Notes: a model not told the origin generated them from the letters alone. DNA of 64,000 nucleotides from a virus (IMGVR_UViG_3300043470_000815); one strand, 5' to 3'; positions 12,261-34,022 are shown, counted from the first letter of the stretch. Numbers and translations are program-made.

Positions 12261-12287
12261 AGATATTAAAATTTGATGATATAATTT

Positions 12288-12563: not shown

Positions 12564-12604
12564 ATATTGATAGTGATTTAATTATTGGTAGAATTATTAA
12601 TTTA

Positions 12605-13206: not shown

Positions 13207-13804
13207 AAAATTAAAAAAAAACCTTAGTTGACAATCATTACGGTTTCAACGTAAACCATGTCATTTTATATTAAAAAAAATCTTAATATGACCGGACGAC
13301 AGGTGGGAGGTAAACCCCTTCCCCCATGAGTAGTTTAATTAACATTAAAAATCACGAAACGTCAATTGTTATCCTGAATATTCCTGTCAAAATGAATAGT
13401 ATTGATACGGAATGACCATTATACTGTAAAACAATGAAATACCATCCAACCAAAAAGATAATCGTTTAAATCGGTGAATATATACGTCAATTTCTTTCCC
13501 TACCTATCAAGGTTTTTTGATAATTTTTGAACGGCATTGACAGTTGATATGATAGGTTGGTACGGAATAATCAAAGCATGAATATACTGTAAAATAATGA
13601 ATAGTATTATTAATAATACCATGTATATCAATATTATTAATACTTACCCTTATCTATCAGGTTTTTTGATAATTTTGGGTCAAAATGAATAAATTTGATA
13701 GGGTTGGTAGGTACTAATCGTTACACTCAAACTTTAAAAAACTGTTAAAATAATAAATGAATTATAGTTAAAATTTTAACATTTAAACAATTTGTTTTAT
13801 GAAA

Positions 13805-14539
13805 ATTGTGAAGATTAAAGTAATGAAAAACAATGAAAATTGTGAAGTATTTTTATTAATTTCTACCCTACCTATCAGGAAGTTGATAAATGTCGGTGAA
13901 TGCTAATGATTATGTAAAACCAACCTGAATCAATATACAACCATTTTTTGAACGATCTATACCTGAACCGTATGAATACACCAACCAACCTATGAAAAAC
14001 GAAAATACATTGATATATGATACCAAATAAACCAATCTAAACAACTATTGTCTGAAACATGAACACATACACGCTAATTGTTAGTATTTATGAATTAATT
14101 AACAATACATGAAAATATTAACAATACATGAAAATTACATAAAAATACTAAAAATTAATTGATAATTGATGTAAAGTATGTAAATACAATTAAAAATATA
14201 TAAAAAGAGGTACTTATAGCAAAAGTCCAAGGTACAATTTTCCCCGTGCCTATTGCGTTCCCTACGGTCAGCACGGCGGAAAATCGCGTGTGTGAAAAAC
14301 GAGGTTTTCCACCCATCGGGCTGGTGAGGGTTTATTTTTTCATAATTTTTGAGGGTATTGGTTTCTTTGTTTTTCTTTTTGCTTTAGTTTTTCTTTTATT
14401 TTAAATTAATAATAATTCCTGCGTGCGTATCGCGACACATGCACTCGCACACATAATGCGAGCAAGCACGTGCGTGTACATACGCGAACGCATACACACG
14501 TGTGAGATTGTGAAGATTTATTGATTAAAAATTGTGAAG
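13805..14539. repeat. four ATTGTGAAG repeats in two pairs
   Basis: copies at 13805, 13839, 14507, 14531. Confidence 0.75.
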
Positions 14540-14641
14540 AATTAATGTTCATTTTATGTTAACATAAAAGTTAAGGAATAGTTAAAATAAACATTTTGTT
14601 TTGCCTACCAAACAGTTATAATTTTAAATTTGTAATGAATT

Positions 14642-14682
14642 GTTAATGGACTTGTGGGGAAGGATAAATGGACTTATCTTTG
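14642..14682 (+). promoter_or_regulatory. Bacteroidota sigma70-type promoter (plus strand)
   Basis: GTTAATGGACTTG..TATCTTTG read directly on plus strand, upstream of ORF 14715. Confidence 0.8.
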
Positions 14683-14714
14683 TATCATAATTAATAGTTA
14701 AACATTTAAATTTT

Positions 14715-14993
14715 ATGCAAACTTTACAATTAAACCCAAAAGACCAAGGCGGTATAATCGACCAAATGTTAAAATTAAAAGCATCAGTAAATTATCATAA
14801 TGCTGAAATTTTACCAAATTATAAAAATATGCAAGTTTGGGAGACAAATGAATACTCCTTAATTAATAACGCAAATTTGGCAGAACTTGAAAGGTTAGAA
14901 AATCATATAATTAAGCATGAGCGGCTTTTTAATTCTATTCTTTGTGAGTACGGCTATACCGTTACTATTTTTCTTATAAAATTCATTAAATAA
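14715..14993 (+). CDS. hypothetical early protein
   Basis: 92-aa ORF with its own promoter; hairpin follows at ~14999-15020. Confidence 0.7.
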   Translation: MQTLQLNPKDQGGIIDQMLKLKASVNYHNAEILPNYKNMQVWETNEYSLINNANLAELERLENHIIKHERLFNSILCEYGYTVTIFLIKFIK

Positions 14994-15271
14994 AAAAATC
15001 CCACCAAGGTTGGTAGGACTTTCATTATTTTCCATATTTTGGAAAGTTTCCAATTTTTGGAATAATTCCATATTTTGGAAAAAGGGTTGGGTTAATATTT
15101 CAATTCATACTGGATTGGTGGGAGATGATAATTGTATGTAAATCAATGATATATGTATTTTTTTAAATTAAATTTCAATTTAATCTTTTAATCCAAAATT
15201 TATAACACGGACTAAATGAGTGCTTTATCTCCCCCCACCCCAGTATAAATTAAAATAAATTAAAAATAATA

Positions 15272-17077
15272 TCATTTCGGCAATTTTTTAGCCATTTTTC
15301 GTGAAATTAAATAATATTTCCCTTTTTTAATTTTCATAATTTCAACTTTTGGTGATATTTTTATTACCAACCCACCAGTAAAAACCATCCAACCTTCTTT
15401 TGTTTCGCCTAAGTATTGCTTATTATTTAATATTTCAGTTAACCAAACTACCCGTTTATGTGATCGTTTAACCTCTAAATTGTTATTTAACAAACCGCTA
15501 CTTCCAAAAACATATCCCTTATCAGCACTCATTTCATCACTTAAATTATAAACAAACGACTTTTCATATCCAGCCTTAATAGCAATTAAAAAAGATTGTA
15601 ATATCCATTCAGCCTGTATCGAATCATTTTCAACTGCCTGACATAATGGTGTAGAACATGGATTTGTATCGTAACCAAATTCGGTTAGCCAAAATTTAAC
15701 ATTTTTCCTACCCAACGGGTCAATATTTGATATATCATTGTTAGTATTATTATTGGTGGATAGGTAATCCCTCCCTACCTTATTTTTTAAAACATTTAAA
15801 CGTTGATACAATTTATCAGTTATAGGATCAATACCATCCCCCAAATATAAATTAACCGTTTGTGCTGGAAATGGTGGATTTGCCGAATTACAATAATGAT
15901 GAACATTTATAACATCAGCCGCAAATATTTGATCCGTTCGGTTTTGTTTAAACCACTGATTCATATCTTCAATATATTTCGTATTGATAGCCGATATACC
16001 AGCCATCACAACCTTCATTGATGGATCAGCCGTTTTGATACCATAACCTTTTCCCATACGTCCTTCGTGACCATCATAAACCGCACTCATAAAGGCGGCA
16101 AATTGCTCGGCTGTGTACTTATGCGTTGGATTCTTCCAAGGTCGGTCGGGTTCATTTTCTAGTTCGATATAAGACAGTAAATCTAGTCCACTTTGCAACA
16201 AATTCACAATATCACCATTCCACCTAGGCTCTTGATTTACCTTTAAATCCTGTGATGGATATTTAACCCTACCATACCTTGCTGCCAATTGAAATCCGTA
16301 TTGTGAAATTGACCTGTAAGACAACGGATCGTTTGGATTAGTACCAATATCATTCATCTTTAAATCTGCCCATTCAGGGTCATTTGGTGATTCGTGTGAC
16401 CAGTTTGGAACTTTGTTGATACACGGAATTGCAGTAATATTTTTATTCTTTAATTCCTGATAATATTCATCATACATTCCATCAGCCTGTACGGTTGGAT
16501 TAACCGCTAAACCTTTCGGAGTCCAAGACCATTGAACCATTTGATAAATCCTGATATTTTGACATGGAATTAGGTCGGTTGGTATCCAATGAAACCCATT
16601 TGTACCAATTGATAATGCGTCTCCAGTTAACTTTTTAGTGTTGGGAGGAGTCACAGTAGAATCATAATAAAACTCCAGTTCGGTGATTGGTATATCCCCT
16701 TGAATATCAGAAATGGAAATCAATATTTCATCGACTTCCATTGTTTTAAATGTCTTGGTTTGCCATTTATTGAATTGATTCAATTTTACATTGATTGTAT
16801 CCGTTTGGTTAATTAGTGTAAAGTTTGGTTGTCCAACCCAATCAAACAGTTTTAATTTATTAAATTTAACTTTTTCAGTAAATTTGATTTTTGCTAATAC
16901 TGGATAATCACCAGCATTCCACCCCGGAAACCACCCCGACTGTGTATTTCCATCAAATAATTGTAACGCACCTGTGGATTGTCCTCGAATGACCGTGATT
17001 GAATATAGTTTATCATTGATTTGTCCCCACATCATAATAGGGAATAGTAATAGAGTTAATAATGTTTGTGTTTTCAT
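15272..17077 (-). CDS. secreted clan GH-A glycoside hydrolase with N-terminal discoidin/CBM32-like domain
   Basis: signal peptide MKTQTLLTLLLFPIMMWGQ; LFDGNTQSGW; acid/base ENEPD; DVINVHHY; nucleophile WLTEFGYD. Confidence 0.75.
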   Translation of the reverse strand: MKTQTLLTLLLFPIMMWGQINDKLYSITVIRGQSTGALQLFDGNTQSGWFPGWNAGDYPVLAKIKFTEKVKFNKLKLFDWVGQPNFTLINQTDTINVKLNQFNKWQTKTFKTMEVDEILISISDIQGDIPITELEFYYDSTVTPPNTKKLTGDALSIGTNGFHWIPTDLIPCQNIRIYQMVQWSWTPKGLAVNPTVQADGMYDEYYQELKNKNITAIPCINKVPNWSHESPNDPEWADLKMNDIGTNPNDPLSYRSISQYGFQLAARYGRVKYPSQDLKVNQEPRWNGDIVNLLQSGLDLLSYIELENEPDRPWKNPTHKYTAEQFAAFMSAVYDGHEGRMGKGYGIKTADPSMKVVMAGISAINTKYIEDMNQWFKQNRTDQIFAADVINVHHYCNSANPPFPAQTVNLYLGDGIDPITDKLYQRLNVLKNKVGRDYLSTNNNTNNDISNIDPLGRKNVKFWLTEFGYDTNPCSTPLCQAVENDSIQAEWILQSFLIAIKAGYEKSFVYNLSDEMSADKGYVFGSSGLLNNNLEVKRSHKRVVWLTEILNNKQYLGETKEGWMVFTGGLVIKISPKVEIMKIKKGKYYLISRKMAKKLPK

Positions 17078-23637: not shown

Positions 23638-24063
23638 TTAACCTTTCAATTTCCTTAATTGTTCTTCAAGATCACCCAATGTAACGTTTTTATCACGTTC
23701 AGCGGCAATCCTATCTTCTAGTTTTCTGATTTCGGCTTGTTTGGTTTTTTCGGCGGCGGAATTTTTTTCTTTATCCAACTTGTAACCAATCGTTAGATCA
23801 ATGAACTTATACCACGTATCCAGCCTTTTTTCCAATTTAGATTGGTCTTCCGTCTTAGACCACGAGTCAAGGTCATTGAGTTGATTTTTTTGCCCTTTAA
23901 GGGTCTTTAAAAGCAATCGTAGTGATACTACACTTGCGGCGTTTATGATTTCCCAAGGATTGACCATGTTCGCCCCGAATTTTCCTTCCAACACATCTTC
24001 ACTAAATGATAAGTCAGTATAAAGGGTTCTTAATGTTTGTAAATTTTCTTTTGTAAATTCCAT
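23638..24063 (-). CDS. hypothetical coiled-coil protein
   Basis: 141 aa, charged helical C-terminus. Confidence 0.7.
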   Translation of the reverse strand: MEFTKENLQTLRTLYTDLSFSEDVLEGKFGANMVNPWEIINAASVVSLRLLLKTLKGQKNQLNDLDSWSKTEDQSKLEKRLDTWYKFIDLTIGYKLDKEKNSAAEKTKQAEIRKLEDRIAAERDKNVTLGDLEEQLRKLKG

Positions 24064-24179
24064 AGATAAAATTTTTAATTTTATTTGAGTGATAATTTAA
24101 ATTTATTGATTATTGATTTTAATTCCTACTAGATTGGTATTATTTTCCGTTAGGTAGGGTTTTGATTTACTGTTAAATA

Positions 24180-24288
24180 AGTCGGAGACAATATCCCGCG
24201 TGGCACTACTGCCATGAACCCTTTTATTATTTAACGTCGGGGTTAGGAAACCCGATTACAGTTTTAAAAGTTTGATACGTCTCCGACT
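24180..24288 (-). ncRNA. candidate structured ncRNA downstream of the vWA gene
   Basis: perfect 10-bp terminal helix AGTCGGAGAC/GTCTCCGACT extended by GTATC/GATAT, enclosing two hairpins. Confidence 0.6.
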
Positions 24289-24323
24289 GTATTTTTAAAT
24301 CCTACCAATCTAATAGGAATTGA

Positions 24324-26171
24324 TTAAATTGTGTTTTGTTTTATTAATTCATAACGGTTTGACATATACAACGTTTTCAACGGTAAGTAAGTATCAATAA
24401 CATCTAAATCGTCAATATTCTTAAAGATTTGATTAATCACACCTGCATTATAACCCATTACGTGTAAAGTATTAGGAACTCCAGCGAACTTCGATGGTTC
24501 GTCCCTACCAGTCACAACGTCCCAAATAACTACAACACCATCCCACCCATAATTCAACATTTTGCGACGAAAATCTAACATGGATTGTGCTGCATTACTT
24601 AGACGATTCATATCACCATCCGAAACAACAACAAAAACGGGATACCCTTGTAGTTGTTCAATTTTATGCTGTTTAGTTAATGGGTCAGATTCAATCCACC
24701 TACCTAATGTGTCGGCAACTGATGTGAAGTTTGTACTTCCACCATTAGAATCAATGAATTTTGATATATTTCCATAGTTTTCACTAAAAGGTTTAGTACG
24801 ATCAATTAATTTTTCTACCTTAGTTGCAACACCTTGTAAAAAACGATTTGGGCGGGTTGTGCCTGTTGAACCATCCGTGTAAACATTTGCTTCCGATCCG
24901 AATGTAATAAGGACGTTATCTAATTCATTGGATGGATTTTTTAACATTGTAATTGTTGATAGCAAACGAGCCATAAACGTTGCAACACCTGTCATACTAC
25001 CCGAAATATCCGCAATTGTCAATACTGGAACATCGAACTTAACTTGATCCAAAATACTTTGTGCATTTAAATTCAGTTGGGTGGTGGATTGTTGCATCTT
25101 TTCCAAAATACTAAACATCGTTTCTCCACCCGTGTTGACTTTGGCCGCTTTTTTAACCTGTGATAACGCAATTTTATCTTCTTCACTGGCAGTTCCTAAA
25201 CGGATTTTTTCAGTCAGTTCACGTTGCGTTTCTTGTAATTTGGCTTTATTGGTTTCCCATTCAAGTAACCATTTTCCTAAGTCATTTTTCCACTTAGATT
25301 TTAATTTATCATCACCATCCAACAACCTACGACGGGTACGGAAACGTGCCGATGACGGCATTTTATCCAACAAATCATTAAATTGAATTTTGTCCAAATC
25401 GTTAATTTTTCCTGTTGAAAATAGAACACTTTCCAATTCTTGGTTGTATTGTTTTTTCCATTCAGCCAACCCCGTGAATTTTTTGTATTTTTCACCACGT
25501 GAAACTTCCCACCCTAATTCAACTGATAATAAATCGTAAAATTTACTACGAAGTTTCATATTGGCTTTGACTAAATCAGACAAATCACGTTGACCAACCT
25601 TTTCACGGGTTGTACGGTCTAACTTTTGACGCTTAGATGTTCGCACGTTTGTTAGGAATTTTGCAATTATCATACAATCCACCACATTACCTTTACGGAT
25701 AATATTTGCGAGGTATTTTGCAACTTCCGATAGATCAACACATTCCAACATGTTAATGTTTTCGGTTACTTGTTTACTACCAGTTTTTGTCTTGACACGT
25801 GATGCTAATACGTTGTCCAATGTGGTATATTGCCTTATACAATCGCTTGTGACGAACTTTAGGTATTGGGTTGGATGATTTAGCCTTGTCCAATTTAAGA
25901 TTGTCCTAAACGCTTCACGGTTGGAATTACCACCGTTATCTAACGAAGTTTCATTTCGTAGAACGTTATGTGTTCGGTTGGAAATGTCGCCACAACTGAA
26001 TGCAATTATCCAAAACAATTGTTTTTCTTGTTCGGTTTTACAATCGCGGAATGCGTTGGTTAGAATTGCGGGTGTAATTTTACCTGATTGGGCAGCCTGA
26101 TAAAATTCAAATAAAGCAAGTTTTCCATAAAATGGATTTTCACTTGCGGGAGTTTTTAATGAAACTTTCAT
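24324..26171 (-). CDS. DUF2828-like (TROVE/Ro60-related) vWA-domain protein
   Basis: C-terminal vWA with MIDAS DISGS, STNF, VVSDG, VVIWDV, VMGYN; N-terminal helical region with GGNSNREAFRTILNW..HP resembling DUF2828. Confidence 0.7.
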   Translation of the reverse strand: MKVSLKTPASENPFYGKLALFEFYQAAQSGKITPAILTNAFRDCKTEQEKQLFWIIAFSCGDISNRTHNVLRNETSLDNGGNSNREAFRTILNWTRLNHPTQYLKFVTSDCIRQYTTLDNVLASRVKTKTGSKQVTENINMLECVDLSEVAKYLANIIRKGNVVDCMIIAKFLTNVRTSKRQKLDRTTREKVGQRDLSDLVKANMKLRSKFYDLLSVELGWEVSRGEKYKKFTGLAEWKKQYNQELESVLFSTGKINDLDKIQFNDLLDKMPSSARFRTRRRLLDGDDKLKSKWKNDLGKWLLEWETNKAKLQETQRELTEKIRLGTASEEDKIALSQVKKAAKVNTGGETMFSILEKMQQSTTQLNLNAQSILDQVKFDVPVLTIADISGSMTGVATFMARLLSTITMLKNPSNELDNVLITFGSEANVYTDGSTGTTRPNRFLQGVATKVEKLIDRTKPFSENYGNISKFIDSNGGSTNFTSVADTLGRWIESDPLTKQHKIEQLQGYPVFVVVSDGDMNRLSNAAQSMLDFRRKMLNYGWDGVVVIWDVVTGRDEPSKFAGVPNTLHVMGYNAGVINQIFKNIDDLDVIDTYLPLKTLYMSNRYELIKQNTI

Positions 26172-26225
26172 TAATTTGTAAGTTAATAAGTGAAAAAAAA
26201 AATAAAATACTACCTAATGGTTAAA

Positions 26226-26447
26226 TTAAGGCAATTTTGAATATTCATAAATTATACGCATTTTATCCCATAATTCTATTTCGATTTCTCGTTCATCGGG
26301 TAATGAAAATATCAAAGTTCTTTTCATTTCGCCTATTCGATAAGATGAAATATTATTTATTTCGGGTATTAATGCTTCGTAAAATTGTACGAATTTTCCG
26401 TTGGGAGTTAAATCTTTGAATATTTCGGATATTTGTGATTCTGTCAT
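26226..26447 (-). CDS. hypothetical protein
   Basis: 73-aa ORF between RNA elements and vWA gene. Confidence 0.55.
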   Translation of the reverse strand: MTESQISEIFKDLTPNGKFVQFYEALIPEINNISSYRIGEMKRTLIFSLPDEREIEIELWDKMRIIYEYSKLP

Positions 26448-26486
26448 ATTAAATTTATTTAATCTTTTTATTGTTAAATTATTAAG

Positions 26487-26600
26487 CAGGGGTTATTGGA
26501 CTCGAACCAATATTTCGACCTTGGAATGGTTGTTAAATGAATTGTAAGTAATCAAATGAATACTTTAATTTACGCGTCCTACCAGTTAGACTAAACCCCT
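26487..26600 (-). ncRNA. tRNA-shaped RNA with inserted helix-ACAAU module
   Basis: acceptor AGGGGTT/AACCCCT, D arm GTCT..GGAC, T arm ATTGG-TTCGAGT-CCAAT; hairpin AAGTATTC/GATTACTT + ACAAT between D arm and a weak TCC anticodon arm. Confidence 0.75.
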
Positions 26601-26781
26601 TAATTGTTAATATTAGGCAAGAACCAAAAAATATATGAATATTACATATATCCACTTCTTAGGAACAATACTGTGTTTTTGATTCCTACCCATTTATTTA
26701 AAGTTAGTGTGAATAATATTCACCGTGTTTGTAACAGAAATCTGTTACTTAAAGAGACAGAAGGTAAACTTCTGTTTAAAA

Positions 26782-26880
26782 AAATCCACTTGTTGTTGTC
26801 CACCACTGGACGAATCACCATACATGAAGGTAAATATAAGAATCGAACTTATCATTTTTTAATGTATTGTAAGTGGATTT
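26782..26880 (-). ncRNA. Y RNA (YrlA)-like circularly permuted tRNA mimic
   Basis: terminal helix AAATCCACTT/AAGTGGATTT + ACAATAC; inside in order T arm (ATAAG-TTCGATT-CTTAT), loop-closed acceptor-like stem, D arm (GTCC-AGTGGT-GGAC). Confidence 0.75.
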
Positions 26881-26934
26881 AAAATTTATGTTTAAATCCC
26901 GATAGAATTAAAGTTAATCTTTGTGATTTAATTG

Positions 26935-27086
26935 TCGGGGAGGTGGGAATCGAACCCACGTTGTATAATATATCAGATTATTTTATATGTTAAAAGTATT
27001 GTAAGTAAATTAAACTCTGAATTAATCGTTAGTATTTTAATTGATAAAGTTTTTAATCTACTCATTTCCAGCGTTTTAACTCCCCT
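26935..27086 (-). ncRNA. tRNA-shaped RNA with helix-ACAAU module in place of the anticodon arm
   Basis: acceptor GGGGAG/CTCCCC, T arm GTGGG-TTCGATT-CCCAC, internal helix GAGTAGATT/AATTTACTT + ACAATAC. Confidence 0.7.
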
Positions 27087-27092
27087 GTATTT

Positions 27093-27311
27093 CTAAAATC
27101 TTTTCAACTTTTCGTATAAATCCCAAAAAACACTTCCTATACAAATGAATGTTCCTGTACATAAAACAACGAAAGATATTTGCAATTTAATCCATGTCGA
27201 TGTATTATACGCACCATTATCATCAGCATAAACCGAAATAGCCGTCAATACAACTATATTAGAAAACGCTAAGTATAAGAAAAACAATTTACTAATTAAT
27301 TCGATGCTCAT
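27093..27311 (-). CDS. small membrane protein
   Basis: two hydrophobic helices. Confidence 0.6.
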   Translation of the reverse strand: MSIELISKLFFLYLAFSNIVVLTAISVYADDNGAYNTSTWIKLQISFVVLCTGTFICIGSVFWDLYEKLKRF

Positions 27312-27631
27312 AGAATATTCCGTTTGCGGTTAAATATCCAGTTACATCTTCTTTGTATAAAAAGTGCATTACTGGACAAAATTTACCATTGTCATTAAGA
27401 TAACCGAATACATATTCGGTATTACCGTTAATCGGGTCTTTTGGATATAAAAAGGATTCAAGTCCTTCAAAGTTTAATATTGATGTTTGTGTCATTTTAT
27501 TTTAAAGTTTAATTATTTAATTTAAAAAATGAACTATTTGGACTGAAAATATCCACCCTATTCACACTCGACTTTACTTGCATAGTTTCCGACCGTATAG
27601 GCTCTTGTTGTGACAATAGTTCATATTAAAA

Positions 27632-28192
27632 TTAAGCGTATGCTGTCCAACTTTCTTCGCCACCATCCCAAATAGAACACCAACCATATTCAGTACTTAC
27701 ATACGGTTTACCATCAGATAAACACTTGATTCTTTTTACCCAAGGTTTTTCGTTCTTAAAATCATCCTTGATTGGTGTACAATAACCAGTCATATCACCA
27801 GTTGCACGACGATTTTGCTTAACCTCCCTAAGTTCCAACGTTTGACCTTTTACTTTTGTTACTTGGTAAAAGTTGATGTTGGTTTGTTCCCAACCCCACG
27901 AGTAAACGAAAATATCACCTTCGCTAACTTTGGCAGTTTTTACTAATTCAGCAATTTTTTCACGACGGGCAACTTTAATAGATTCCGATTTTTGATATTC
28001 GGCAATGGTTTCGGCAGCCCATTCATTTCTGCGTTCTTCACTTTTAAAGTAATAATTCTTCAAAGTTTTAGTTTTGCTGTACTTTGCTTTTGGTGTATTT
28101 TGTACAAGTTTGGCGGTTGGTAATCCGTTGGCGTTGTTACCTGTTTCGATGTAAAATTTATCGGTGATGTTGATAATGTTAGTGGTTGTCAT
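27632..28192 (-). CDS. conserved phage hypothetical protein
   Basis: GDIFVYSWGWEQTNINFYQV motif, widespread in phage early regions (recall). Confidence 0.75.
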   Translation of the reverse strand: MTTTNIINITDKFYIETGNNANGLPTAKLVQNTPKAKYSKTKTLKNYYFKSEERRNEWAAETIAEYQKSESIKVARREKIAELVKTAKVSEGDIFVYSWGWEQTNINFYQVTKVKGQTLELREVKQNRRATGDMTGYCTPIKDDFKNEKPWVKRIKCLSDGKPYVSTEYGWCSIWDGGEESWTAYA

Positions 28193-28254
28193 TGTGTGTA
28201 AAGTTTAAATGTTTAATAAAATGTAAATAAAATTTATTTCCTTTAATTATACCA

Positions 28255-28306
28255 CAAAGATACTACCTCCCAACCTATCCCACAATAGCATTAACTAACT
28301 GTTAAC
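28255..28306 (-). promoter_or_regulatory. Bacteroidota sigma70-type promoter heading the RNA/vWA unit
   Basis: GTTAACAGTTAGTTAATGCTATTG-N~20-TATCTTTG. Confidence 0.8.
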
Positions 28307-28398
28307 AATAACGTTCAATTCTTTTTAAAAGTTATTCAGTTTAAATAAGCGAAAAAAACAGTGTGTTGTTACACCAAAAGTATTCATTTGTTTTCTTA

Positions 28399-28518
28399 GT
28401 TGCCGTACCATTTCAAATGAATGTGTAGTATTTAATTACAACCTTTTGTATTTATCCCAAAGCACATCACAAACTACTGTTACCATAATTTGCATTTCGC
28501 ACATGGCGGGTACTCAAC
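28399..28518 (-). ncRNA. candidate structured RNA
   Basis: ORF-free; long-range pairing GTTG-A-GTACC / GGTAC-GG-CAAC enclosing several possible hairpins. Confidence 0.35.
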
Positions 28519-28755
28519 TACTCTTTAAACGATTGCTACCCTCAAGCACACGTCCTATCTTTTTCGGTTATTTAAACTGAATAACGTTACTTCCGTTTTT
28601 TACTACGAATTACGGATTGTACAATCGAACCAACCCCACTATTAATCGGAATCGCGTAACGTTTTAATTCTTGTGGTAAGCGTTTAAATTCATATTCATC
28701 AAGAAATGAACCAGCCTTCCAGTGTTTAAATGGTATTGATAGTTTGTATTTCATT

Positions 28756-29034
28756 TTATTTTTTACTCGAATGTACAATTGTGTCACCTAACTTAAAATC
28801 ACCTCCAGCCATAATTACCGATCCGGGCGTGATAATGTTTTTACCAGTTATGTGTAGGTTGGTTGGTTCGGGTTTAACTTCATTCCTTAAAATTTCTTTA
28901 AGTTCATCGCTATCTTTCCACCGATCCCACCAATCGTTAAAGTCTGAATTATTTTTGCCTAAATTATAGGCTTGAAAAAGTACGTTTTTTAGTGACATTT
29001 GTTTTAAATAATTAATTATTGAACTGGAAACCAA
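28756..29034 (-). CDS. hypothetical protein
   Basis: 92-aa ORF. Confidence 0.55.
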   Translation of the reverse strand: MVSSSIINYLKQMSLKNVLFQAYNLGKNNSDFNDWWDRWKDSDELKEILRNEVKPEPTNLHITGKNIITPGSVIMAGGDFKLGDTIVHSSKK

Positions 29035-29234
29035 ACAGTAATTACACTGGCGGGAGGCATGACTATTCCAATAGCATGAATAACTTCCATTTTGTACGGT
29101 GATGCGAAATCACATTGGCATAATTTGACAAAGTTATGAATGTAACAATACAATCCAAATACGATTAACGCCCCGTATAATAGGCAACCTACCTTTGACA
29201 TTCCTGTGAGTTTTGATTTTACTTTAATTGACAT
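29016..29234 (-). CDS. small membrane protein
   Basis: hydrophobic; KLCQCDFASPYKMEVIHAIG resembles a common phage membrane protein (recall). Confidence 0.65.
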   Translation of the reverse strand: MSIKVKSKLTGMSKVGCLLYGALIVFGLYCYIHNFVKLCQCDFASPYKMEVIHAIGIVMPPASVITVWFPVQ

Positions 29235-29507
29235 TTTATTTTAAGTTTATTAATTACTAAATCCACCAAGATCAGTGTAATCTTTCAATTGTTGAATCAA
29301 TTCATCAGTTTCTGTTGAATTATCAATTAAATGCTGTTCAATTACATACCGTTTGGTTGTATCATTCCAAACCGACAACGTTGTTTTTCCTGACGCACTA
29401 TCAGTTTTATATATAAACTGTAAGTCTTTATACGTTTCAACTGTTAAGTAACCATTTATACTTGATGTGTGTTGTGTCATAAAATTTTTAAGTTTTAAAA
29501 GTGTGGG

Positions 29508-29614
29508 TGGAGTATTTGGGAATCGAACCCAAACATTACCAGTGCCGGAAATCGCCTATTTCGGAAATCGGTGCGGACTAATTACAAGTAATTCTGCCTT
29601 TAATTTAATACCCC
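29508..29614 (-). ncRNA. tRNA-like RNA with ~40-nt structured insert in the anticodon arm
   Basis: acceptor GGGGTAT/ATACTCC, D stem AATT/AATT, T arm TTGGG-TTCGATT-CCCAA; no canonical anticodon loop. Confidence 0.65.
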
Positions 29615-29635
29615 TTGAAAATAAGAATTAATTTA

Positions 29636-30070
29636 TTATTGTTTAATATGTGATTTTTTACCACCACAAGATCGTGAACAACATGGTTTAAACGTTGGAT
29701 TTTTAACAAGTTTATAATTGACATGATTACCCGCTTTGATAAATTCTTTATTACAAACCGGACATATAAAACATAAATATTTTTTTGTTATATTTCTGTG
29801 TTCTCTATCTTTTTTGTTATTTTCTTTAGGTGTTAAAATTTGTAAATTATCAATGACATCGTTTAAAGGATTATTATCTATATGATCTACGTGTTCATTT
29901 TTTAATAAAAACCTTTCAAGTTTACAACACATTAAATATCTAGCATACGACATACTTGTTCGCGAATTATCGTTTTTTACTAAAACAACTAAATTTCTAG
30001 GTTCTTTATTTTGTAATAAATAAATTGCTTTATAATCTTCTATAAATGGAATTTTTAGTTCGATTTTCAT
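29636..30070 (-). CDS. free-standing HNH homing endonuclease
   Basis: YARYLM..HVDHIDNNPLNDVIDNLQIL HNH motif plus C-terminal CPVC..CCSRSC zinc finger. Confidence 0.85.
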   Translation of the reverse strand: MKIELKIPFIEDYKAIYLLQNKEPRNLVVLVKNDNSRTSMSYARYLMCCKLERFLLKNEHVDHIDNNPLNDVIDNLQILTPKENNKKDREHRNITKKYLCFICPVCNKEFIKAGNHVNYKLVKNPTFKPCCSRSCGGKKSHIKQ

Positions 30071-30100
30071 TATTTATATATTCTTTTAACTAAAAGAAAA

Positions 30101-30190
30101 TGCACTTAATTTGTGGGATTTGAACCCACCTTCGTTTGTGTTTGAGACAAATTGTTCACCTAGAACAGTTTTAAATTTATTGTAAGTGCA
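30101..30190 (-). ncRNA. tRNA-like RNA whose acceptor stem is replaced by the helix-ACAAU module
   Basis: terminal TGCACTT/AAGTGCA + ACAATA; inside D arm TGTTC/GAACA, anticodon arm TTTGT-CTCAAAC-ACAAA, T arm GTGGG-TTCAAAT-CCCAC. Confidence 0.75.
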
Positions 30191-30194
30191 ATAG

Positions 30195-30266
30195 TACCCC
30201 GTATGGGAATCGAACCCATATTTGTAGATCGAAAATCTACTATACTAACCGTTATATGAACGGGGC
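30195..30266 (-). tRNA. tRNA-Glu(TTC)
   Basis: cloverleaf: GCCCCGT/ACGGGGT, anticodon arm GTAGA-TTTTCGA-TCTAC, T loop TTCGATT. Confidence 0.9.
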
Positions 30267-30328
30267 TAATTTATAACGTGAATGGAAACCCTTCACTAAA
30301 GAGACAGAAGATAAACTTCTGCTTAAAA

Positions 30329-30387
30329 AAATCCACTTATTCGTAAAATACCATAATTTTTGATTTAAAAGTATTGTAAGTGAATTT
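30329..30387 (-). ncRNA. minimal helix-ACAAU RNA
   Basis: AAATTCACTT + ACAATAC ... AAGTGGATTT followed by T-run; no tRNA arms. Confidence 0.65.
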
Positions 30388-30408
30388 ATAATTCCGTTAG
30401 AAATTTAG

Positions 30409-30482
30409 TGGCAGGGGTGTGAATCGAACACACAATAATTGGACTTATGAGACCCACTAGCCTACCAAGGCTTGTCCCTGCT
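30409..30482 (-). tRNA. tRNA-Met(CAT), probably initiator
   Basis: AGCAGGG/CCCTGCC with 1:72 mismatch, loop CTCATAA, T loop TTCGATT. Confidence 0.85.
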
Positions 30483-30506
30483 ATTTATTTTTTTTTTACA
30501 TTTTAG

Positions 30507-30587
30507 TGGGAAAAGATGGAATCGAACCACCAATAAAATTTTTGTAAGTAAATTAAATCTACTAACCTGTTTTTTCCCGATTTTCCC
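30507..30587 (-). ncRNA. tRNA-shaped RNA with helix-ACAA module in place of the anticodon arm
   Basis: acceptor GGGAAAA/TTTTCCC, T arm GGTGG-TTCGATT-CCATC, hairpin AGTAGA/TTTACT + TACAAAA. Confidence 0.7.
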
Positions 30588-30742
30588 TAATTCTAAACCA
30601 TCGAAATGTAAACCTGTTAGGGAGGTTTGTCTTTTAAAAGTACATATAATATAATTACACTTTCCCTTTACAATTTGCTTACACCGATTGGGTGGTTAGT
30701 ATGTAACTTGATATATATTATATACCTGTTTTAATTATACAA

Positions 30743-30794
30743 CAAAGATAAGTACTTTATTTTTACTGTGCAATATCATTAACAACTTGTTAAC
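30743..30794 (-). promoter_or_regulatory. Bacteroidota sigma70-type promoter
   Basis: GTTAACAAGTTGTTAATGATATTG-N~20-TATCTTTG. Confidence 0.8.
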
Positions 30795-30802
30795 TTTTAT
30801 TG

Positions 30803-30875
30803 TTGTCACTAAAGGACTCGAACCTTTAACCTTCTGACTCAAAATCAGACGCACTACCAATTGTGCTAAGTGACA
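30803..30875 (-). tRNA. tRNA-Gln(TTG)
   Basis: TGTCACT/AGTGACA, D arm GCAC/GTGC, TCTGA-TTTTGAG-TCAGA, T loop TTCGAGT. Confidence 0.9.
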
Positions 30876-30892
30876 TTTTTTAAACTGTTATG

Positions 30893-31063
30893 TGGTTGAG
30901 GTAGGAATCGAACCTACAAACTTGATATTTTTTACCATCTTTTACTACCTTCGATGTTTAATATCGTGCTGGTTTACTGTTCATAAGTAGTATATCATGG
31001 AGTTTACCCATAATCAATTGTATTGAACTTCACCAACGCGTTTACCAATTTCGCCACCCAACC
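30893..31063 (-). ncRNA. Leu-like tRNA scaffold with ~100-nt insertion in the anticodon arm
   Basis: GGTTGGG/CTCAACC, D arm GGCGAAATTGGTAAACGC, T arm GTAGG-TTCGATT-CCTAC, 171 nt in total. Confidence 0.7.
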
Positions 31064-31081
31064 ATTTAAATTTTAAAAAAA

Positions 31082-31138
31082 AATCCACTTAATTATCAAA
31101 TTAAAAGTTTGGTTGTTTTAATGTATTGTAAGTGGATT
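31082..31138 (-). ncRNA. minimal helix-ACAAU RNA
   Basis: AATCCACTT + ACAATAC ... AAGTGGATT then long T-run; ends identical to element 26782-26880. Confidence 0.7.
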
Positions 31139-31169
31139 AATATTTTAATATCTACTTTTAGATATTCTG

Positions 31170-31245
31170 TGCAACTAAATGGACTCGAACCATTAACACC
31201 AAGATTCATAAATGAATCAACTCTAACCAATTGAGTTATAATTGC
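31170..31245 (-). pseudogene. tRNA-like sequence with abnormal 6-nt anticodon loop
   Basis: good acceptor GCAATTA/TAGTTGC, D arm ACTC/GAGT and T arm; anticodon arm GATTC-ATTTAT-GAATC. Confidence 0.6.
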
Positions 31246-31429
31246 GTTTTAAAAACCGCCCTACCAACATAATTGTACACTTATTATTGGAATAATATAC
31301 TTACTACTTTCAGGCGATTTTATGACAACATTGTACGGATGTTATCATTATTTTTCTTACTTTGACAATACCGCAATAATTACCGAATATGATGGGTAAG
31401 AAAAAATTTATTAGTTAATTATTAATTAG

Positions 31430-31502
31430 TACCCGTAATGAGACTCGAACTCATAAATCCATGATCCTAAATCATGCTGCTTTGCCAATTTACTATACGG
31501 GC
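31430..31502 (-). tRNA. tRNA-Leu(TAG), short variable arm
   Basis: GCCCGTA/TACGGGT, CATGA-TTTAGGA-TCATG, T loop TTCGAGT. Confidence 0.85.
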
Positions 31503-31520
31503 ATTTAATTGATTAATTAG

Positions 31521-31605
31521 TGCAGATGGTGGGACTTGAACCCACACGCCCATTTAGAACAACGGTGTTTAAGACCGTTTTGGCTACCAATTACAACACA
31601 TCTGC
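31521..31605 (-). tRNA. tRNA-Leu(TAA)
   Basis: GCAGATG/CATCTGC, ACGGT-CTTAAAC-ACCGT, long variable arm, T loop TTCAAGT. Confidence 0.9.
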
Positions 31606-31613
31606 TTATTACA

Positions 31614-31808
31614 TTAACCCCAAAATTCTAGGATTCCTACATTATCAAAATAAAAATATCCAGCCGATTGATTATTTGGTAATTTACTTTCATTCCACTT
31701 ATTTTTAAACTTATTAAAAGTAGATGGTGACATTCTTACATGACCTTTACCGTTAACCAGTTTGGGTGTTTTACCAAATAAACTTTGAAAAATTTCTAAA
31801 GACATCAT
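31614..31808 (-). CDS. hypothetical protein
   Basis: 64-aa ORF directly behind promoter 31844. Confidence 0.55.
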   Translation of the reverse strand: MMSLEIFQSLFGKTPKLVNGKGHVRMSPSTFNKFKNKWNESKLPNNQSAGYFYFDNVGILEFWG

Positions 31809-31843
31809 AATGTGATAGATTAAAACTGTGATTAATTATGATA

Positions 31844-31884
31844 CAAAGATAAGTCGAATATTCATACTGTGCAACCTCATTAAC
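31844..31884 (-). promoter_or_regulatory. Bacteroidota sigma70-type promoter
   Basis: 31-nt core identical to promoter at 47544. Confidence 0.8.
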
Positions 31885-32015
31885 ATTTCATTATCAAACT
31901 GGGATTTCATAAGGACTTTTACCCCACGTTTTTATGGAAATCGACTACCCGAAATGACCACGTGCTTTCTAATTTTACCCTATGTTACACTTAGATAAAA
32001 CCATTTATTTAAACA

Positions 32016-32127
32016 TAACCGCCAAGACTTGAACTTGGAAACAATTTTCATAAAAAAGTTATTACAAGTAACTTTAATATTTCCATTGTATTTTTGTATG
32101 CCATAACTTGTAATTATTCATTCGGTT
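32016..32127 (-). pseudogene. degenerate tRNA-Thr(TGT)-like element
   Basis: T arm CCAAG-TTCAAGT-CTTGG, anticodon arm AAGTTA-CTTGTAA-TAACTT, only 5-bp acceptor and bloated D region. Confidence 0.45.
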
Positions 32128-32201
32128 TGGCGGGAATAAAAGGATTTGAACCTATATTAAGTGATTAACAGTCACCCGTTCTACCATTGAACTATATTCC
32201 C
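32128..32201 (-). tRNA. tRNA-Asn(GTT)
   Basis: GGGAATA/TATTCCC, GGTGA-CTGTTAA-TCACT, encoded CCA. Confidence 0.9.
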
Positions 32202-32405
32202 TTTTAATCTTAAAAAATATCGTTTGATAATATTTGTAATTTTTTCGTTATAATTTTTACACTCACAACCGCGTTGGCCACCTCGGATTGAATACCGGGA
32301 ACATGAGACTATCAATCTTCATTGTGTTATTATAACAATTACAATTCCGTTTGACTATACGGATATAGTTTTATTTAAAAAAATTATTTAATTTTAATTA
32401 TACAA

Positions 32406-32446
32406 CAAAGATATGTACTTCCAACCAATTTCACAATACCATTAAC
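32406..32446 (-). promoter_or_regulatory. Bacteroidota sigma70-type promoter heading the tRNA region
   Basis: GTTAATGGTATTG-N~20-TATCTTTG. Confidence 0.8.
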
Positions 32447-32519
32447 AATCTATTCACAAAAAAACCCCCAAACCATGCGAACACGTTTGAGGGTCAATAT
32501 TTTTTAAGATTTTAAATCG

Positions 32520-34022
32520 TTAAAACTTTTTTAATCCTTCTTTCGTGAACATTATAGTGTTACCTTTCTGATCTTTTCCTTCTATACGGAGAACGTCAAT
32601 GTCATACTTTTTAGTGGATTTTAGTATCAAATCCAAGAAATACGCTGTCCAATATGTTGCATCTGCATAATCCGAACCCGGTAACAGACCTAACCCCCGA
32701 TTAATGAAAAATTCAGTAATTTCAGTATTTAATTTTTTCAATTCATCAGCCGCAAATAAGGTTGTTTTATATGAAACAATATCAATTTTAGTAATTGTTA
32801 CAATTTCACCCGCCGCTAAATCTACATTATTTAATAATACGGGTTCTTTACTTTTAGTCGAACCATTACCAACAATCGACCAACCAATCGAATAATTAAC
32901 ATTTAATGTAAATGATAAATCGCGAACGGTATGGGTGGGTGGATTTACTGGAGGGACTGGTGGATTAACAGGGCCGCCCGTTGGAATATCTTTAGGATTT
33001 TTATCCAATATAGACTTCACAAACGCATAACCATAACCTGTTTCATTGTCCTTACCTGCTGGTAAAATGTCCGATGCAACCCACGCCATGTATTTTTTCA
33101 TAACATCTGTATTGGCTAATACCTTACCCCATTTACTTAACGCAATTGCACATAAGGCGGATTGAAAAGGTGTTGCCATTGAAGTACCTGACAATGATGC
33201 GTATTGTTGATTTAGATAAGTAGATGTGATATTACGTCCCGGTTCAGACATCCAAACTTCCGGCCCGAATGTTGAAAATGAACTACGTTTTAGGTTCTGA
33301 TCTAAACTACCAACCCCAATTACATGTTCACTGTTACCGGGATAATTTACGCCCAAAGTACCTGTATTTCCAGCCGCTATACAATAAATTACACCTAATT
33401 CTTTAGATGCTTTCAATGCAGCCTCGGTTGGAGCGTATTTTGCAGTACCACCACCCAAAGACATATTTACAACTACGAATGTTCCTTGATTTAAATAATT
33501 TTTATTTTCTAAATCTTCGGTTTTAACAGCATTTGCAACCCATTCAAATGAACCCGATCCTTGGTCATTCAGAACTTTGACAGGTTTAAATTGTAATAAA
33601 CCCGCTTGTACCAAACTACGTGCAAGACCTAAGTTTTTACTTCCAATAATACCTGCCACATGTGTACTATGACCTTGAACGTCCACCAATGAACCTGCTG
33701 GTGATGTAAAATTTGAACCAGTCAATTGACCATCTTTTAAATCATTATGGTCATACTTTGAAGCGGTATCAAATACTTTAACAACAACTTTATTTTTACA
33801 TTCAGTTGTTAAACGCGTGATTAATTCATCGGGCAAAAGTAAATCTTCGCCCCAATTGGTTGGCCCTGCCAACACGTCACGTTTTGAAATTACTTTATCG
33901 GGTTTACCTTCCCCGGGAAATGGTGTAATGTCAAATGATTGACTAAATGTTACATTTGTTATAAAAAGTAACGCGATTGATAGGAATTGTTTCATTATGT
34001 TTTTAATTTTTGTTTTAACCAA
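32520..34022 (-). CDS. secreted subtilisin-like S8 serine peptidase
   Basis: signal peptide MKQFLSIALLFITNVTFSQ; triad VFDT, HSTHVAGII, AAGN, SGTSMATP. Confidence 0.9.
   Translation of the reverse strand: MVKTKIKNIMKQFLSIALLFITNVTFSQSFDITPFPGEGKPDKVISKRDVLAGPTNWGEDLLLPDELITRLTTECKNKVVVKVFDTASKYDHNDLKDGQLTGSNFTSPAGSLVDVQGHSTHVAGIIGSKNLGLARSLVQAGLLQFKPVKVLNDQGSGSFEWVANAVKTEDLENKNYLNQGTFVVVNMSLGGGTAKYAPTEAALKASKELGVIYCIAAGNTGTLGVNYPGNSEHVIGVGSLDQNLKRSSFSTFGPEVWMSEPGRNITSTYLNQQYASLSGTSMATPFQSALCAIALSKWGKVLANTDVMKKYMAWVASDILPAGKDNETGYGYAFVKSILDKNPKDIPTGGPVNPPVPPVNPPTHTVRDLSFTLNVNYSIGWSIVGNGSTKSKEPVLLNNVDLAAGEIVTITKIDIVSYKTTLFAADELKKLNTEITEFFINRGLGLLPGSDYADATYWTAYFLDLILKSTKKYDIDVLRIEGKDQKGNTIMFTKEGLKKF

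What the first reader, a model, noticed from the sequence alone, without database searches (positions are those of the whole stretch)
26487..30587. Three tRNA-order RNAs carrying the motif at the anticodon-arm position
Seen: 26487-26600, 26935-27086 and 30507-30587 have normal 5'/3' acceptor ends and T arms. The helix-ACAA module sits at the anticodon position, with its two strands in swapped order compared with 26782. Inference: these are the un-permuted counterparts and look like intermediates between tRNA and Y RNA. They could be matured by RNase P/Z and CCA addition yet lack a usable anticodon. Element 26487 keeps a weak TCC arm after the insert.
Basis: partly seen in the sequence, partly recalled or inferred. 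Interest (0 to 1): 0.8.

Follow-up and report, generated by a model that had tools for sequence, protein, structure and literature searches.

The report
Tagged tRNA-like RNAs beside phage Ro60-like gene
Three tRNA-shaped RNA genes in a large phage each carry the same small hairpin-plus-ACAA tag, which marks a whole array of tRNAs and tRNA mimics next to a distant relative of the RNA-binding protein Ro60 in hundreds of related phages, so they look like a new form of the Ro60/Y-RNA partnership.

Summary
The three elements are real, but they have three different architectures. 26487-26600 is a tRNA-Gly(UCC) gene with a 42-nt module inserted between positions 28 and 29. Its anticodon arm is intact once the insert is set aside. 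26935-27086 belongs to a conserved tRNA-like family with the module in the D-arm region. 30507-30587 is a minimal form: acceptor, T arm and the module as its only central arm.

The module is a covarying helix ending ACUU/AAGU, followed by single-stranded ACAAUAC. A model built only from other phages picks out these three sites as its best hits in a 10-kb scan.

In 62 related phage loci ACTTACAA occurs 378 times on the strand of one neighbouring gene and 39 times on the other strand. That gene (24324-26171) encodes a 615-aa protein whose predicted fold matches Ro60 over both domains. Its own start codon lies inside a module helix.

My best reading is a Ro60-like protein that binds a portable RNA tag grafted onto tRNAs and tRNA mimics, so a new variant of the Ro60/Y-RNA kind. 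I could not tell whether the tag stays in the mature RNA or is spliced out. Earlier notes of this scan on the same genome proposed the Ro60 link and the 28/29 insert. I tested both.

The parts
26487..26600 (-). Class I element: tRNA-Gly(UCC) body with a module insert. Acceptor 26594-26600/26488-26494, D arm 26576-26591, T arm 26495-26511, discriminator G 26487, no encoded CCA.
   Evidence: Rfam tRNA 42 bits. Coordinates. 97% identical in the near-identical phage locus L129.
26531..26572 (-). 42-nt insert between tRNA positions 28 and 29. P2 UAAAU (26568-26572) pairs with AUUUA (26534-26538). P1 hairpin AAGUA (26561-26565) pairs with UACUU (26546-26550). Motif ACAAUUC at 26539-26545. Linker ACA.
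   Evidence: Model R1 hit 26539-26565, 18.1 bits. Same insert site in 13 other tRNAs.
26516..26530 (-). 3' part of the split anticodon arm: ACC, loop AUUCCAA (anticodon UCC), then GGUCG. GGUCG pairs with C27-G28 (26573-26574) plus ACC.
   Evidence: In-silico removal of 42 nt gives ARAGORN tRNA-Gly(tcc) of standard length.
26935..27086 (-). Class II tRNA-like RNA. Acceptor GGGGAG 27080-27085 pairs with CUCCCC 26937-26942 (6 bp). D-like UUAAAAC 27073-27079 pairs with UUUUAAC 26989-26995. D loop GCUGGAAAU 27064-27072. T arm 26943-26959.
   Evidence: Aligns with relatives in L123, L128, L139, L141, L164, L169, L175 and L184; L179 has one too.
26996..27063 (-). Module of 26935. P1 is 12 bp (27052-27063 with 27003-27014) around a 37-nt loop. 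Motif ACAAUAC at 26996-27002.
   Evidence: RNAfold MFE. R1 hit 26996-27017, 17.1 bits, using a shorter local hairpin.
26964..26988 (-). Hairpin at the anticodon-arm position of 26935, with a 6-nt loop AUCUGA and no canonical anticodon loop.
   Evidence: Relatives have the homologous arm with loop UCUGGA or UUCGAAU.
30507..30587 (-). Minimal element. Acceptor GGGAAAA 30581-30587 pairs with UUUUCCC 30508-30514. T arm 30515-30531. P1 AGUAGA 30558-30563 pairs with UUUACU 30547-30552. Motif ACAAAAA 30539-30545. No D stem and no separate anticodon arm.
   Evidence: Rfam tRNA 30.6 bits. R1 hit 17.8 bits. Absent from L129. A promoter-like site lies about 145 nt upstream at 30731-30750.
26782..26885 (-). 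Permuted counterpart. P1 5' strand, then ACAAUAC, T arm, closed acceptor, D arm and P1 3' strand, followed by a U run and a terminator-like hairpin.
24324..26171 (-). Gene of the 615-aa Ro60-like protein: helical N domain plus a vWA domain with MIDAS DISGS. It is the proposed binding partner of the module.
   Evidence: AF2 model pLDDT 82. Foldseek top 11 hits are all Ro60. VIA Z 13.2 with 398 residues aligned to 1yvr. hhalign to a DUF2828/DUF7788 phage protein, 94.8%.
26130..26198 (-). Module-like helix UUUUCACUU/AAGUGAAAA enclosing the start codon of the Ro60-like gene. The 3' strand lies in the SEN codons. Coordinates are approximate.
   Evidence: The same arrangement is seen in L122, L124, L129 and L130. 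A variant (UUACUU-ACAA..AUG..CAAGUAG) occurs in the other clade.

Best explanation
The three loci are genes for tRNA-derived small RNAs that each carry one copy of a portable RNA module. The module is a 6-12 bp helix (P1) whose junction end is conserved as ACUU/AAGU. A single-stranded ACAAUAC follows it, and a second short helix (P2) often closes it.

The module is most likely the binding site of the neighbouring Ro60-like ring protein (24324-26171). On this reading the RNAs are transcribed from the phage's tRNA array and trimmed at their acceptor ends like tRNAs. They then persist as tagged tRNA or tRNA-mimic RNPs, much as tRNA-like Y RNAs do with Ro60.

26487 is a tagged tRNA-Gly(UCC). 26935 is a member of a conserved tagged tRNA mimic family. 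30507 is a minimal acceptor/T-arm mimic. The protein probably also represses its own translation through a module around its start codon.

Shown here:
- the architecture of the three elements
- covariation of the helix
- the association with the gene, on its strand
- the Ro60-like fold

Inferred, not shown:
- binding of the protein to the module
- retention of the module in the mature RNA
- the downstream role, which by analogy would be RNA surveillance, RNA repair or counter-defence
For: (1) P1 is a real helix.
- The 8 nt before ACAA have a perfect Watson-Crick partner nearby at 25% of 657 distinct sites, against 1.9% of control anchors. There are 39 different strand sequences.
- On 62 distinct hairpin modules, 96.3% of cells pair against 81.7% in shuffles (0/500). 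The covariation score is 0.472 against 0.183, and at most 0.10 when the partner is slid.

(2) The module goes with the gene.
- ACTTACAA occurs 378 times on the gene strand and 39 times on the other strand in 62 loci.
- All 71 model hits are on the gene strand.
- The modules cluster directly up- or downstream of the gene.
- tRNAs further away lack the motif (searches compared).

(3) The start codon of the gene lies inside a module helix in both clades.

(4) The protein looks like Ro60.
- The Foldseek top 11 hits are all Ro60, aligned over the full length.
- VIA-align gives Z 13.2 with 398 residues aligned, against about 170 for vWA-only hits.
- It is a remote homolog of the DUF2828/DUF7788 'RNA-binding protein' that sits beside the tRNA array of a cultured Yersinia phage.

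(5) Module-only RNAs with unrelated 32-50 nt interiors, each followed by a U run, exist at 30328-30395 and 31085-31140. Such RNAs fit a tag better than an intron.

(6) There are precedents.
- YrlA Y RNAs mimic tRNA and lie next to Ro60, in phages too (PMC4201824).
- Phage phiLo Ro60 binds two Y-like RNAs encoded upstream of its gene (PMC12135203).
- Bas63 gp130 has a Ro60-like fold, lies next to tRNA genes and counters the Ppl defence (PMC11482910).
Against: - No binding data exist.
- The known Ro60 site (GNCGAA, PMC4201824) is absent from the module.
- Pfam TROVE does not hit the protein.
- Structural TM-scores to Ro60 are only 0.30-0.45.
- In class I, the anticodon stem and loop are kept intact around the insert for many different anticodons. 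Selection for decoding after removal of the insert would explain this at least as well.
- Many P1 helices simply flank canonical tRNAs as a leader/trailer pair. That pattern looks like a processing signal.
- 30507 is missing and 26935 is replaced in a phage whose protein is 97% identical, so these two may be dispensable.
Confidence: 0.55

Rival explanations
1. The module is an intervening or processing cassette that is cut out. In 26487 it would be a new kind of protein-dependent tRNA intron at position 28/29. An unknown endonuclease would remove it and a phage RNA ligase would seal the ends, giving a normal tRNA-Gly. Permuted and leader/trailer forms would go through the same cut-and-join step.
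For: - 12 of 14 class I genes regain a perfect 5-bp anticodon stem with a 7-nt loop once the insert is removed. The anticodons include Gly, Glu, Asp, Pro, His, Asn, Ile and UCA.
- The junction is always CG|UA.
- The module occupies the same three contexts as archaeal BHB motifs: inside tRNAs, at the ends of permuted tRNAs and in leader/trailer pairs (PMC3978253).
- The window encodes a T4 Rnl1-type RNA ligase and two metallophosphoesterases.
Against: - No endonuclease candidate was found.
- Both junctions lie on the same strand at a three-way junction, so no bulge-helix-bulge can form (by inspection).
- Module-only RNAs and the module at the start codon of the protein gene have no splicing rationale.
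- Canonical tRNAs with the same anticodon co-exist in four loci.
- 26935 and 30507 would give no usable tRNA after any excision.
Confidence: 0.2
2. The module is a cis-acting signal for maturation or termination of the tRNA operon, read by host enzymes such as RNase III, RNase E or RNA polymerase. It has no dedicated phage protein, and the gene next door is a coincidence of synteny.
For: - Leader/trailer helices enclose canonical tRNAs (L121 8850, L122 5242, L125 6387, L126 7851).
- The 3' strand is often followed by a U run.
Against: - Hairpin forms are buried inside tRNA bodies.
- The modules are confined to the flanks of one gene, while other tRNAs of the same phages lack them (searches compared).
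- A module encloses that gene's start codon.
- P1 is short and AU-rich, which makes it a poor RNase III site or terminator.
Confidence: 0.1
3. The three elements are decaying tRNA pseudogenes invaded by a selfish short repeat (MITE-like, or spread by recombination or homing), with no function of their own.
For: - Turnover is rapid. A 680-nt indel between two module copies removes 30507 in L129.
- 26935 is replaced there by a chimera that shares only its last 28 nt.
- HNH endonuclease genes sit inside the arrays.
Against: - The strand bias is strong: 378 against 39.
- The helices show compensatory changes.
- Class I and class II architectures are kept in phages whose Ro60-like proteins are only 30-56% identical.
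- Acceptor, D, T and split anticodon stems covary.
- The two P1 strands occur in both orders, which a DNA element with terminal repeats does not explain.
Confidence: 0.08

Closest known systems
Bacterial and phage Ro60 (Rsr) with YrlA-type Y RNAs (Chen et al. 2014, PMC4201824; phiLo Ro60-Yrl1/2, PMC12135203)
   Same: - Small RNAs with tRNA-like T and D arms are encoded right next to a ring-shaped protein with a helical domain plus vWA.
- A helix with a conserved single-stranded or bulged motif is the presumed protein site.
- Several RNAs accompany one gene.
   Different: - The protein is not recognised by Pfam TROVE.
- The motif is ACUU-ACAAUAC, not GNCGAA.
- There are about 3 to 13 exact-motif sites per locus rather than 1 or 2 RNAs.
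- The module is placed in the D arm, at 28/29 of the anticodon stem, in the anticodon loop, in the variable arm or around whole tRNAs.
- Many carriers keep tRNA gene order and a full anticodon arm.
Felixounavirus Ro60-like protein beside the tRNA array (Bas63 gp130, preprint PMC11482910; Yersinia phage P778 ORF021, DUF2828+DUF7788)
   Same: - A Ro60-like protein adjoins a phage tRNA array that also holds odd tRNA-like genes.
- The authors guessed that some of the 'tRNAs' are Y RNAs.
- It is a remote homolog of the window's protein (hhalign 94.8%).
   Different: - tblastn finds no match to the window's protein in the phage collection.
- The P778 array shows another repeated motif (AGGACU..ACAGCAAACAAU).
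- The ACUU-ACAAUAC module was not seen there: model R1 had no hit in L192 at E up to 1.
Disrupted tRNA genes of archaea and red algae (BHB introns, permuted and split tRNAs; PMC3978253, PMC4090602)
   Same: One short RNA motif recurs inside tRNAs at non-canonical positions, at the ends of permuted tRNAs and in leader/trailer pairs.
   Different: - There is no bulge-helix-bulge geometry.
- The setting is a bacteriophage.
- The motif also stands alone and sits on an mRNA.
- Splicing has not been shown.
Two-piece tmRNA from permuted ssrA genes, and the stable RNAs of unknown function (species 1 and 2) in the phage T4 tRNA region (from my own knowledge)
   Same: These are tRNA-derived, non-decoding RNAs encoded among or like tRNAs. 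For tmRNA, a permuted gene order is tolerated.
   Different: Neither shares the motif or is associated with a Ro60-like protein.

Membership tests
tRNA (Rfam RF00005) | Covariance-model score at or above the gathering score of 29 bits | tested here: met
   Met for two of the three: 26487-26600 at 42 bits and 30507-30587 at 30.6 bits. 26935-27086 got no hit.
tRNA (functional decoder) | Continuous 5-bp anticodon stem with a 7-nt loop, and a call by a tRNA finder | tested here: not met
   - ARAGORN calls none of the three.
- 26487 has the arm only if the 42-nt insert is removed.
- 26935 has a 6-nt loop.
- 30507 has no separate arm.
YrlA / Y RNA | Encoded next to a Ro60 ortholog | tested here: inconclusive
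   The neighbour has a Ro60-like fold (Z 13.2 with 398 residues aligned; Foldseek E 3e-7). It has no TROVE Pfam hit.
YrlA / Y RNA | Conserved Ro60-binding motif GNCGAA(N)G / GGUCCGA in the stem (PMC4201824) | tested here: not met
   The module consensus is ACUU-ACAAUAC. No CGAA motif is seen in the three elements.
YrlA / Y RNA | The 5' and 3' ends pair to form the protein-binding stem, with the tRNA-like part internal | tested here: not met
   In the three elements the ends form an acceptor stem and the module is internal. The neighbour at 26782 does have the Y-like topology.
YrlA / Y RNA | Match to an Rfam Y RNA family | tested here: inconclusive
   Among real RNA genes, only clan CL00001 families (tRNA, tRNA-Sec, tmRNA) matched in 25500-33500 at E up to 5, apart from weak plastid UTR chance hits.
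Ro60 / TROVE-vWA protein (for the partner) | Helical ring domain followed by a vWA domain with a MIDAS motif | tested here: met
   DxSxS motif DISGS. Model helices 18-374 followed by an alpha/beta vWA fold. Only Ro60 chains align across both domains.
Ro60 / TROVE-vWA protein (for the partner) | Sequence-profile membership (Pfam TROVE PF05731 or DUF2828/DUF7788) | tested here: inconclusive
   No Pfam hit apart from weak VWA_2. hhalign to a DUF2828/DUF7788 protein gives 94.8%, E 5e-8, covering the vWA domain and the last helices only.
Archaeal/eukaryal protein-spliced tRNA intron | Bulge-helix-bulge motif with a splice site in each of the two 3-nt bulges | tested here: not met
   By inspection of 14 class I inserts, both junctions lie on the 5' strand of the anticodon stem at a three-way junction.
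Group I intron in tRNA | Intron of 200 nt or more with a P1-P9 core, usually in the anticodon loop | tested here: not met
   The inserts are 33-51 nt and lie in the stem. No intron family matched.

The most novel reading that the evidence does not exclude
A clade of large phages has turned a Ro60-like protein and a portable RNA tag into a system that handles disrupted tRNA genes. tRNAs with a module insert at 28/29, in the D loop or in the variable arm, circularly permuted tRNAs and leader/trailer-clamped tRNAs would all be recognised through the tag. They would then be cut and rejoined by phage enzymes, with Rnl1 as the ligase. This would be the first BHB-independent, protein-dependent tRNA splicing and permutation system outside archaea and eukaryotes.
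Probability: 0.15. Interest if true: 0.92.

Novelty: new variant of a known kind. Interest (0 to 1): 0.74.

Why it matters
Ro60 and Y RNAs are conserved from bacteria to humans, and how they choose and act on RNAs is still poorly understood. This phage lineage offers a natural experiment.
- More than 250 homologs of the protein were found, many on contigs of roughly 100-280 kb.
- One protein family comes with a short, well-defined, covarying RNA tag.
- The tag is grafted onto many different tRNA scaffolds, in several topologies.
- A copy of the tag sits on the protein's own mRNA.

This gives directly testable binding sites. It also suggests that Ro60-like proteins can be aimed at bona fide tRNAs. 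It links to recent evidence that a Ro60-like phage protein next to a tRNA array counters a bacterial defence. If the tag is excised instead, it would be a new class of tRNA intron in phages.

Tried and rejected
- **Close relatives in cultured phages.** blastn of 26000-32300 found only tRNA-sized matches. tblastn of the protein found nothing.
- **Own genome.** None is held for this window.
- **Exact-pattern scan of IMG/VR.** Most of the 120 hits were chance single matches. Only L070 was a true relative.
- **Expression.** One freshwater metatranscriptome held 8% of the sampled words. Only low-depth contigs of related phages could be laid. One contig runs unspliced across 26473-26578, but DNA carry-over or a precursor cannot be excluded. 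I draw no conclusion on splicing or RNA ends.
- **ARAGORN on in-silico deletions.** It is too permissive to locate the insert ends by itself.
- **RNAalifold on the MAFFT alignment of class I.** It recovered the tRNA stems but not P1, because the insert was misaligned. A dedicated hairpin model was used instead.
- **Naive helix search allowing G-U pairs.** The background was high: 8 bp or more at 47% of sites against 18% of controls. It was replaced by the exact-complement test.
- **Promoter reading of TACAAT inside the motif.** Rejected, because the strand upstream of it covaries with a downstream partner and must therefore be transcribed.
- **Val-anticodon reading.** CUUACAA equals a tRNA-Val(UAC) anticodon loop. 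This was rejected as the general explanation, because in most copies the flanks pair with a distant strand rather than as an anticodon stem.

Full report
**Setting**

The window is AT-rich (about 31% GC) and phage-like, with nearly all genes on the minus strand. It encodes:
- T4-type tail tube and baseplate proteins
- a T4 Rnl1-type RNA ligase (3599-4645)
- two metallophosphoesterases
- an HNH endonuclease

No whole genome is held for it, and no close cultured relative exists. Between 26450 and 32300 the minus strand carries six canonical tRNAs and many tRNA-like or small structured elements. A strongly repeated promoter-like site (TATCTTTGTnGTATAATTAA) occurs 10 times against 0.14 expected. 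Four of these sites lie in the RNA region.

**The observation**

The three elements exist where stated.
- Rfam's tRNA model scores 26487-26600 at 42 bits and 30507-30587 at 30.6 bits.
- 26935-27086 gets no tRNA hit. It has a clean T arm and a 6-bp acceptor.
- None has an encoded CCA.

Each holds a local hairpin directly followed by ACAA, so the two helix strands are in the opposite order to 26782, where they are the RNA's two ends. ACTTACAA is over-represented in the window, at 11 against 3.8 expected. Eight copies lie on the minus strand within 5 kb.

**The module**

Across copies, the four base pairs next to the junction are conserved (ACUU/AAGU). The outer pairs vary in a compensatory way, for example AUCCACUU/AAGUGGAU, UGCACUU/AAGUGCA, AAGACACUU/AAGUGUCUU and GAGUCGCUU/GAGCGACUC.
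- At 657 distinct motif sites from the window and related loci, the 8 nt before ACAA have an exact complement nearby in 25% of cases. For control anchors the figure is 1.9%. There are 39 different strand sequences.
- I built a 25-position covariance model from 12 hairpin modules of other phages. It found 71 matches in about 0.9 Mb, all on one strand.
- On the resulting alignment, 96.3% of cells pair against 81.7% in shuffles. The covariation score is 0.472 against 0.183 (0/500 shuffles), and at most 0.10 for slid partners. This alignment is fitted to the model, so it leans towards the structure.
- Scanning window 24000-34000 with this foreign model gives the three focal hairpins as hits 1 to 3.

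In class I inserts a second helix (P2) often closes the module, for example UAAAG/CUUUA, UAAAC/GUUUA and UAAAU/AUUUA. This leaves ACAAUAC as the 3' side of an internal loop.

**Three different architectures**

- **26487.** The module is a 42-nt insert (26531-26572) placed after C27-G28. Without it the anticodon stem CGACC/GGUCG and the loop AUUCCAA (UCC) are perfect.
  - I found 13 further tRNA genes, in 12 other phage loci, with a 33-51 nt module insert at the same CG|UA junction.
  - In 12 of the 14 the split stem is a perfect 5 bp.
  - The anticodons include Asp, Gly, Glu, Pro, Ile, His, Asn and UCA.
  - Acceptor, D, T and the 29-31/39-41 pairs covary.
  - The element is 97% conserved in the near-identical phage L129.
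- **26935.** This belongs to a second conserved family: GGGGAGG-UU-GAAAUGUUGG, then the module, then an arm with loop UCUGGA or UUCGAAU, then UAAC, the T arm and CCUCCCC. The family occurs in L123, L128, L139, L141, L164, L169, L175, L179 and L184. There the module lies between the D loop and the 3' strand of the D stem. In 26935 the hairpin at the anticodon position has a 6-nt loop.
- **30507.** This element has only an acceptor, a T arm and the module, and it is absent from L129.

Other phages place the module in the variable arm (L070 3730 and 3945; L174), in the anticodon loop (L139 8053), around whole canonical tRNAs (L121 8850, L122 5242, L125 6387, L126 7851) or at the ends of permuted tRNAs (L121 8647).

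**The partner**

The array ends at a 615-aa gene (24324-26171).
- It has more than 250 homologs, many on contigs of roughly 100-280 kb, and no Pfam domain beyond a weak vWA match.
- In nine loci fetched by protein identity and 62 fetched by profile, the motif clusters beside this gene and on its strand: 378 against 39.
- tRNAs further from the gene lack the motif (searches compared).
- An AlphaFold model from 65 homologs has pLDDT 82. Its 11 best Foldseek hits are all Ro60, aligned over the full length.
- VIA-align gives Z 13.2 with 398 residues aligned to Xenopus Ro. vWA-only hits reach Z about 11 with about 170 residues.
- A profile comparison links the protein to the DUF2828/DUF7788 'RNA-binding protein' that adjoins the tRNA array of Yersinia phage P778 (94.8%).
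- The start codon of the gene lies inside a module-type helix. In the window this is UUUUCACUU...AAGUGAAAA, with the 3' strand in the conserved SEN codons. Both clades show such an arrangement. This pattern suggests autoregulation by an RNA-binding protein.

**Interpretation**

I favour a Ro60/Y-RNA-like RNP in which the module is the protein's tag and the tRNA-like body is the effector or cargo (confidence 0.55). Published precedents are YrlA (PMC4201824), phiLo Ro60 with Yrl RNAs (PMC12135203) and Bas63 gp130. The last has a Ro60-like fold, sits beside tRNA genes and counters the Ppl defence (PMC11482910).

The main rival is that the module is excised (0.2). The strict preservation of split anticodon arms and the presence of an Rnl1 ligase speak for it. 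Against it stand the lack of BHB geometry, the module-only RNAs, the mRNA copy, and the co-existing canonical isoacceptors, which are only 55-68% identical to the interrupted copies. A host-read processing signal (0.1) and selfish decay (0.08) fit less well. RNA data could not decide the question.

**Novelty**

Ro60 with tRNA-like Y RNAs is known, in phages as well. The new points here are:
- a protein family beyond the reach of Pfam
- a different recognition motif
- arrays with about 3 to 13 exact-motif sites per locus
- one module used in at least six positions and topologies
- module-bearing tRNAs that keep intact anticodon arms

I found no description of this in the searchable literature.

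Noticed in passing
window 30893-31063 (-): An Rfam tRNA hit (40 bits) with a 107-nt insert at the anticodon region and no ACTTACAA motif. This is a different kind of interrupted or expanded tRNA. A related 5' half is fused to the 3' end of the 26935-type element in L129 9477-9626.
   Followed up: partly
window 29505-29615 (-): A tRNA-like element with good acceptor and T arms. Its middle starts with the variant ACUUGUAAU and carries CGAUUUCCG twice.
   Followed up: no
window 30107-30190 (-): A tRNA-like body (anticodon loop CUCAAAC, CAA) whose short acceptor is extended by a module helix UGCACUU/AAGUGCA, with ACAAUA as a 5' bulge. Rfam tRNA scores it at 25 bits, below gathering.
   Followed up: partly
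window 30328-30395 and 31085-31140 (-): Module-only small RNAs. A 9-10 bp P1 encloses 39 nt of unrelated AT-rich sequence and is followed by a U run. The near-identical phage L129 has a hybrid of the two, with the 680 nt between them missing.
   Followed up: partly
window 26745-26790 and 30296-30340 (-): A near-identical terminator-like hairpin (CAGAAG-UUUAYC-CUUCUG, then UCUCUUU) follows two different module RNAs.
   Followed up: no
window 28193-28586 (-): A 394-nt stretch without an ORF between two small genes, just upstream of a promoter-like site. It could be another structured RNA. Rfam found nothing here.
   Followed up: no
window 2815, 6921, 28243, 30731, 31832, 32394, 38574, 47532, 53940 (-) and 14675 (+): A repeated promoter-like site TATCTTTGTnGTATAATTAA, with 10 copies against 0.14 expected. 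It is probably this phage's own promoter class.
   Followed up: partly
L123 2677-3116 (+): A GOLLD RNA (Rfam 186 bits) lies about 5 kb upstream of the Ro60-like gene in a related phage, next to its tRNA array.
   Followed up: no
L122 11536-15001 and L124 12135-16823: A Ter-type cluster (HAD hydrolase, PRTase, TerC, two TerD, and in L124 a vWA-TerF-like gene) lies just downstream of the Ro60-like gene in two relatives.
   Followed up: no
L192 (Yersinia phage P778, record 10447-16000): A DUF2828/DUF7788 'RNA-binding protein' sits beside 19 tRNAs plus unannotated tRNA-like genes. Another repeated helix-plus-motif (AGGACUnUUUACAGCAAACAAU ... ACAGUCCAGCAACAAUG) occurs there. This may be an analogous tag system in a cultivable phage group.
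   Followed up: partly
window 29636-30070 (-); L122 6506-7078; L124 5826-6389; L126 6894-7460: An HNH endonuclease gene is repeatedly embedded in the module/tRNA array just upstream of the Ro60-like gene.
   Followed up: no
L185 8708-8826: A class I module-bearing tRNA with anticodon UCA (reads UGA). It could be a suppressor or a sign of recoding in that phage.
   Followed up: no
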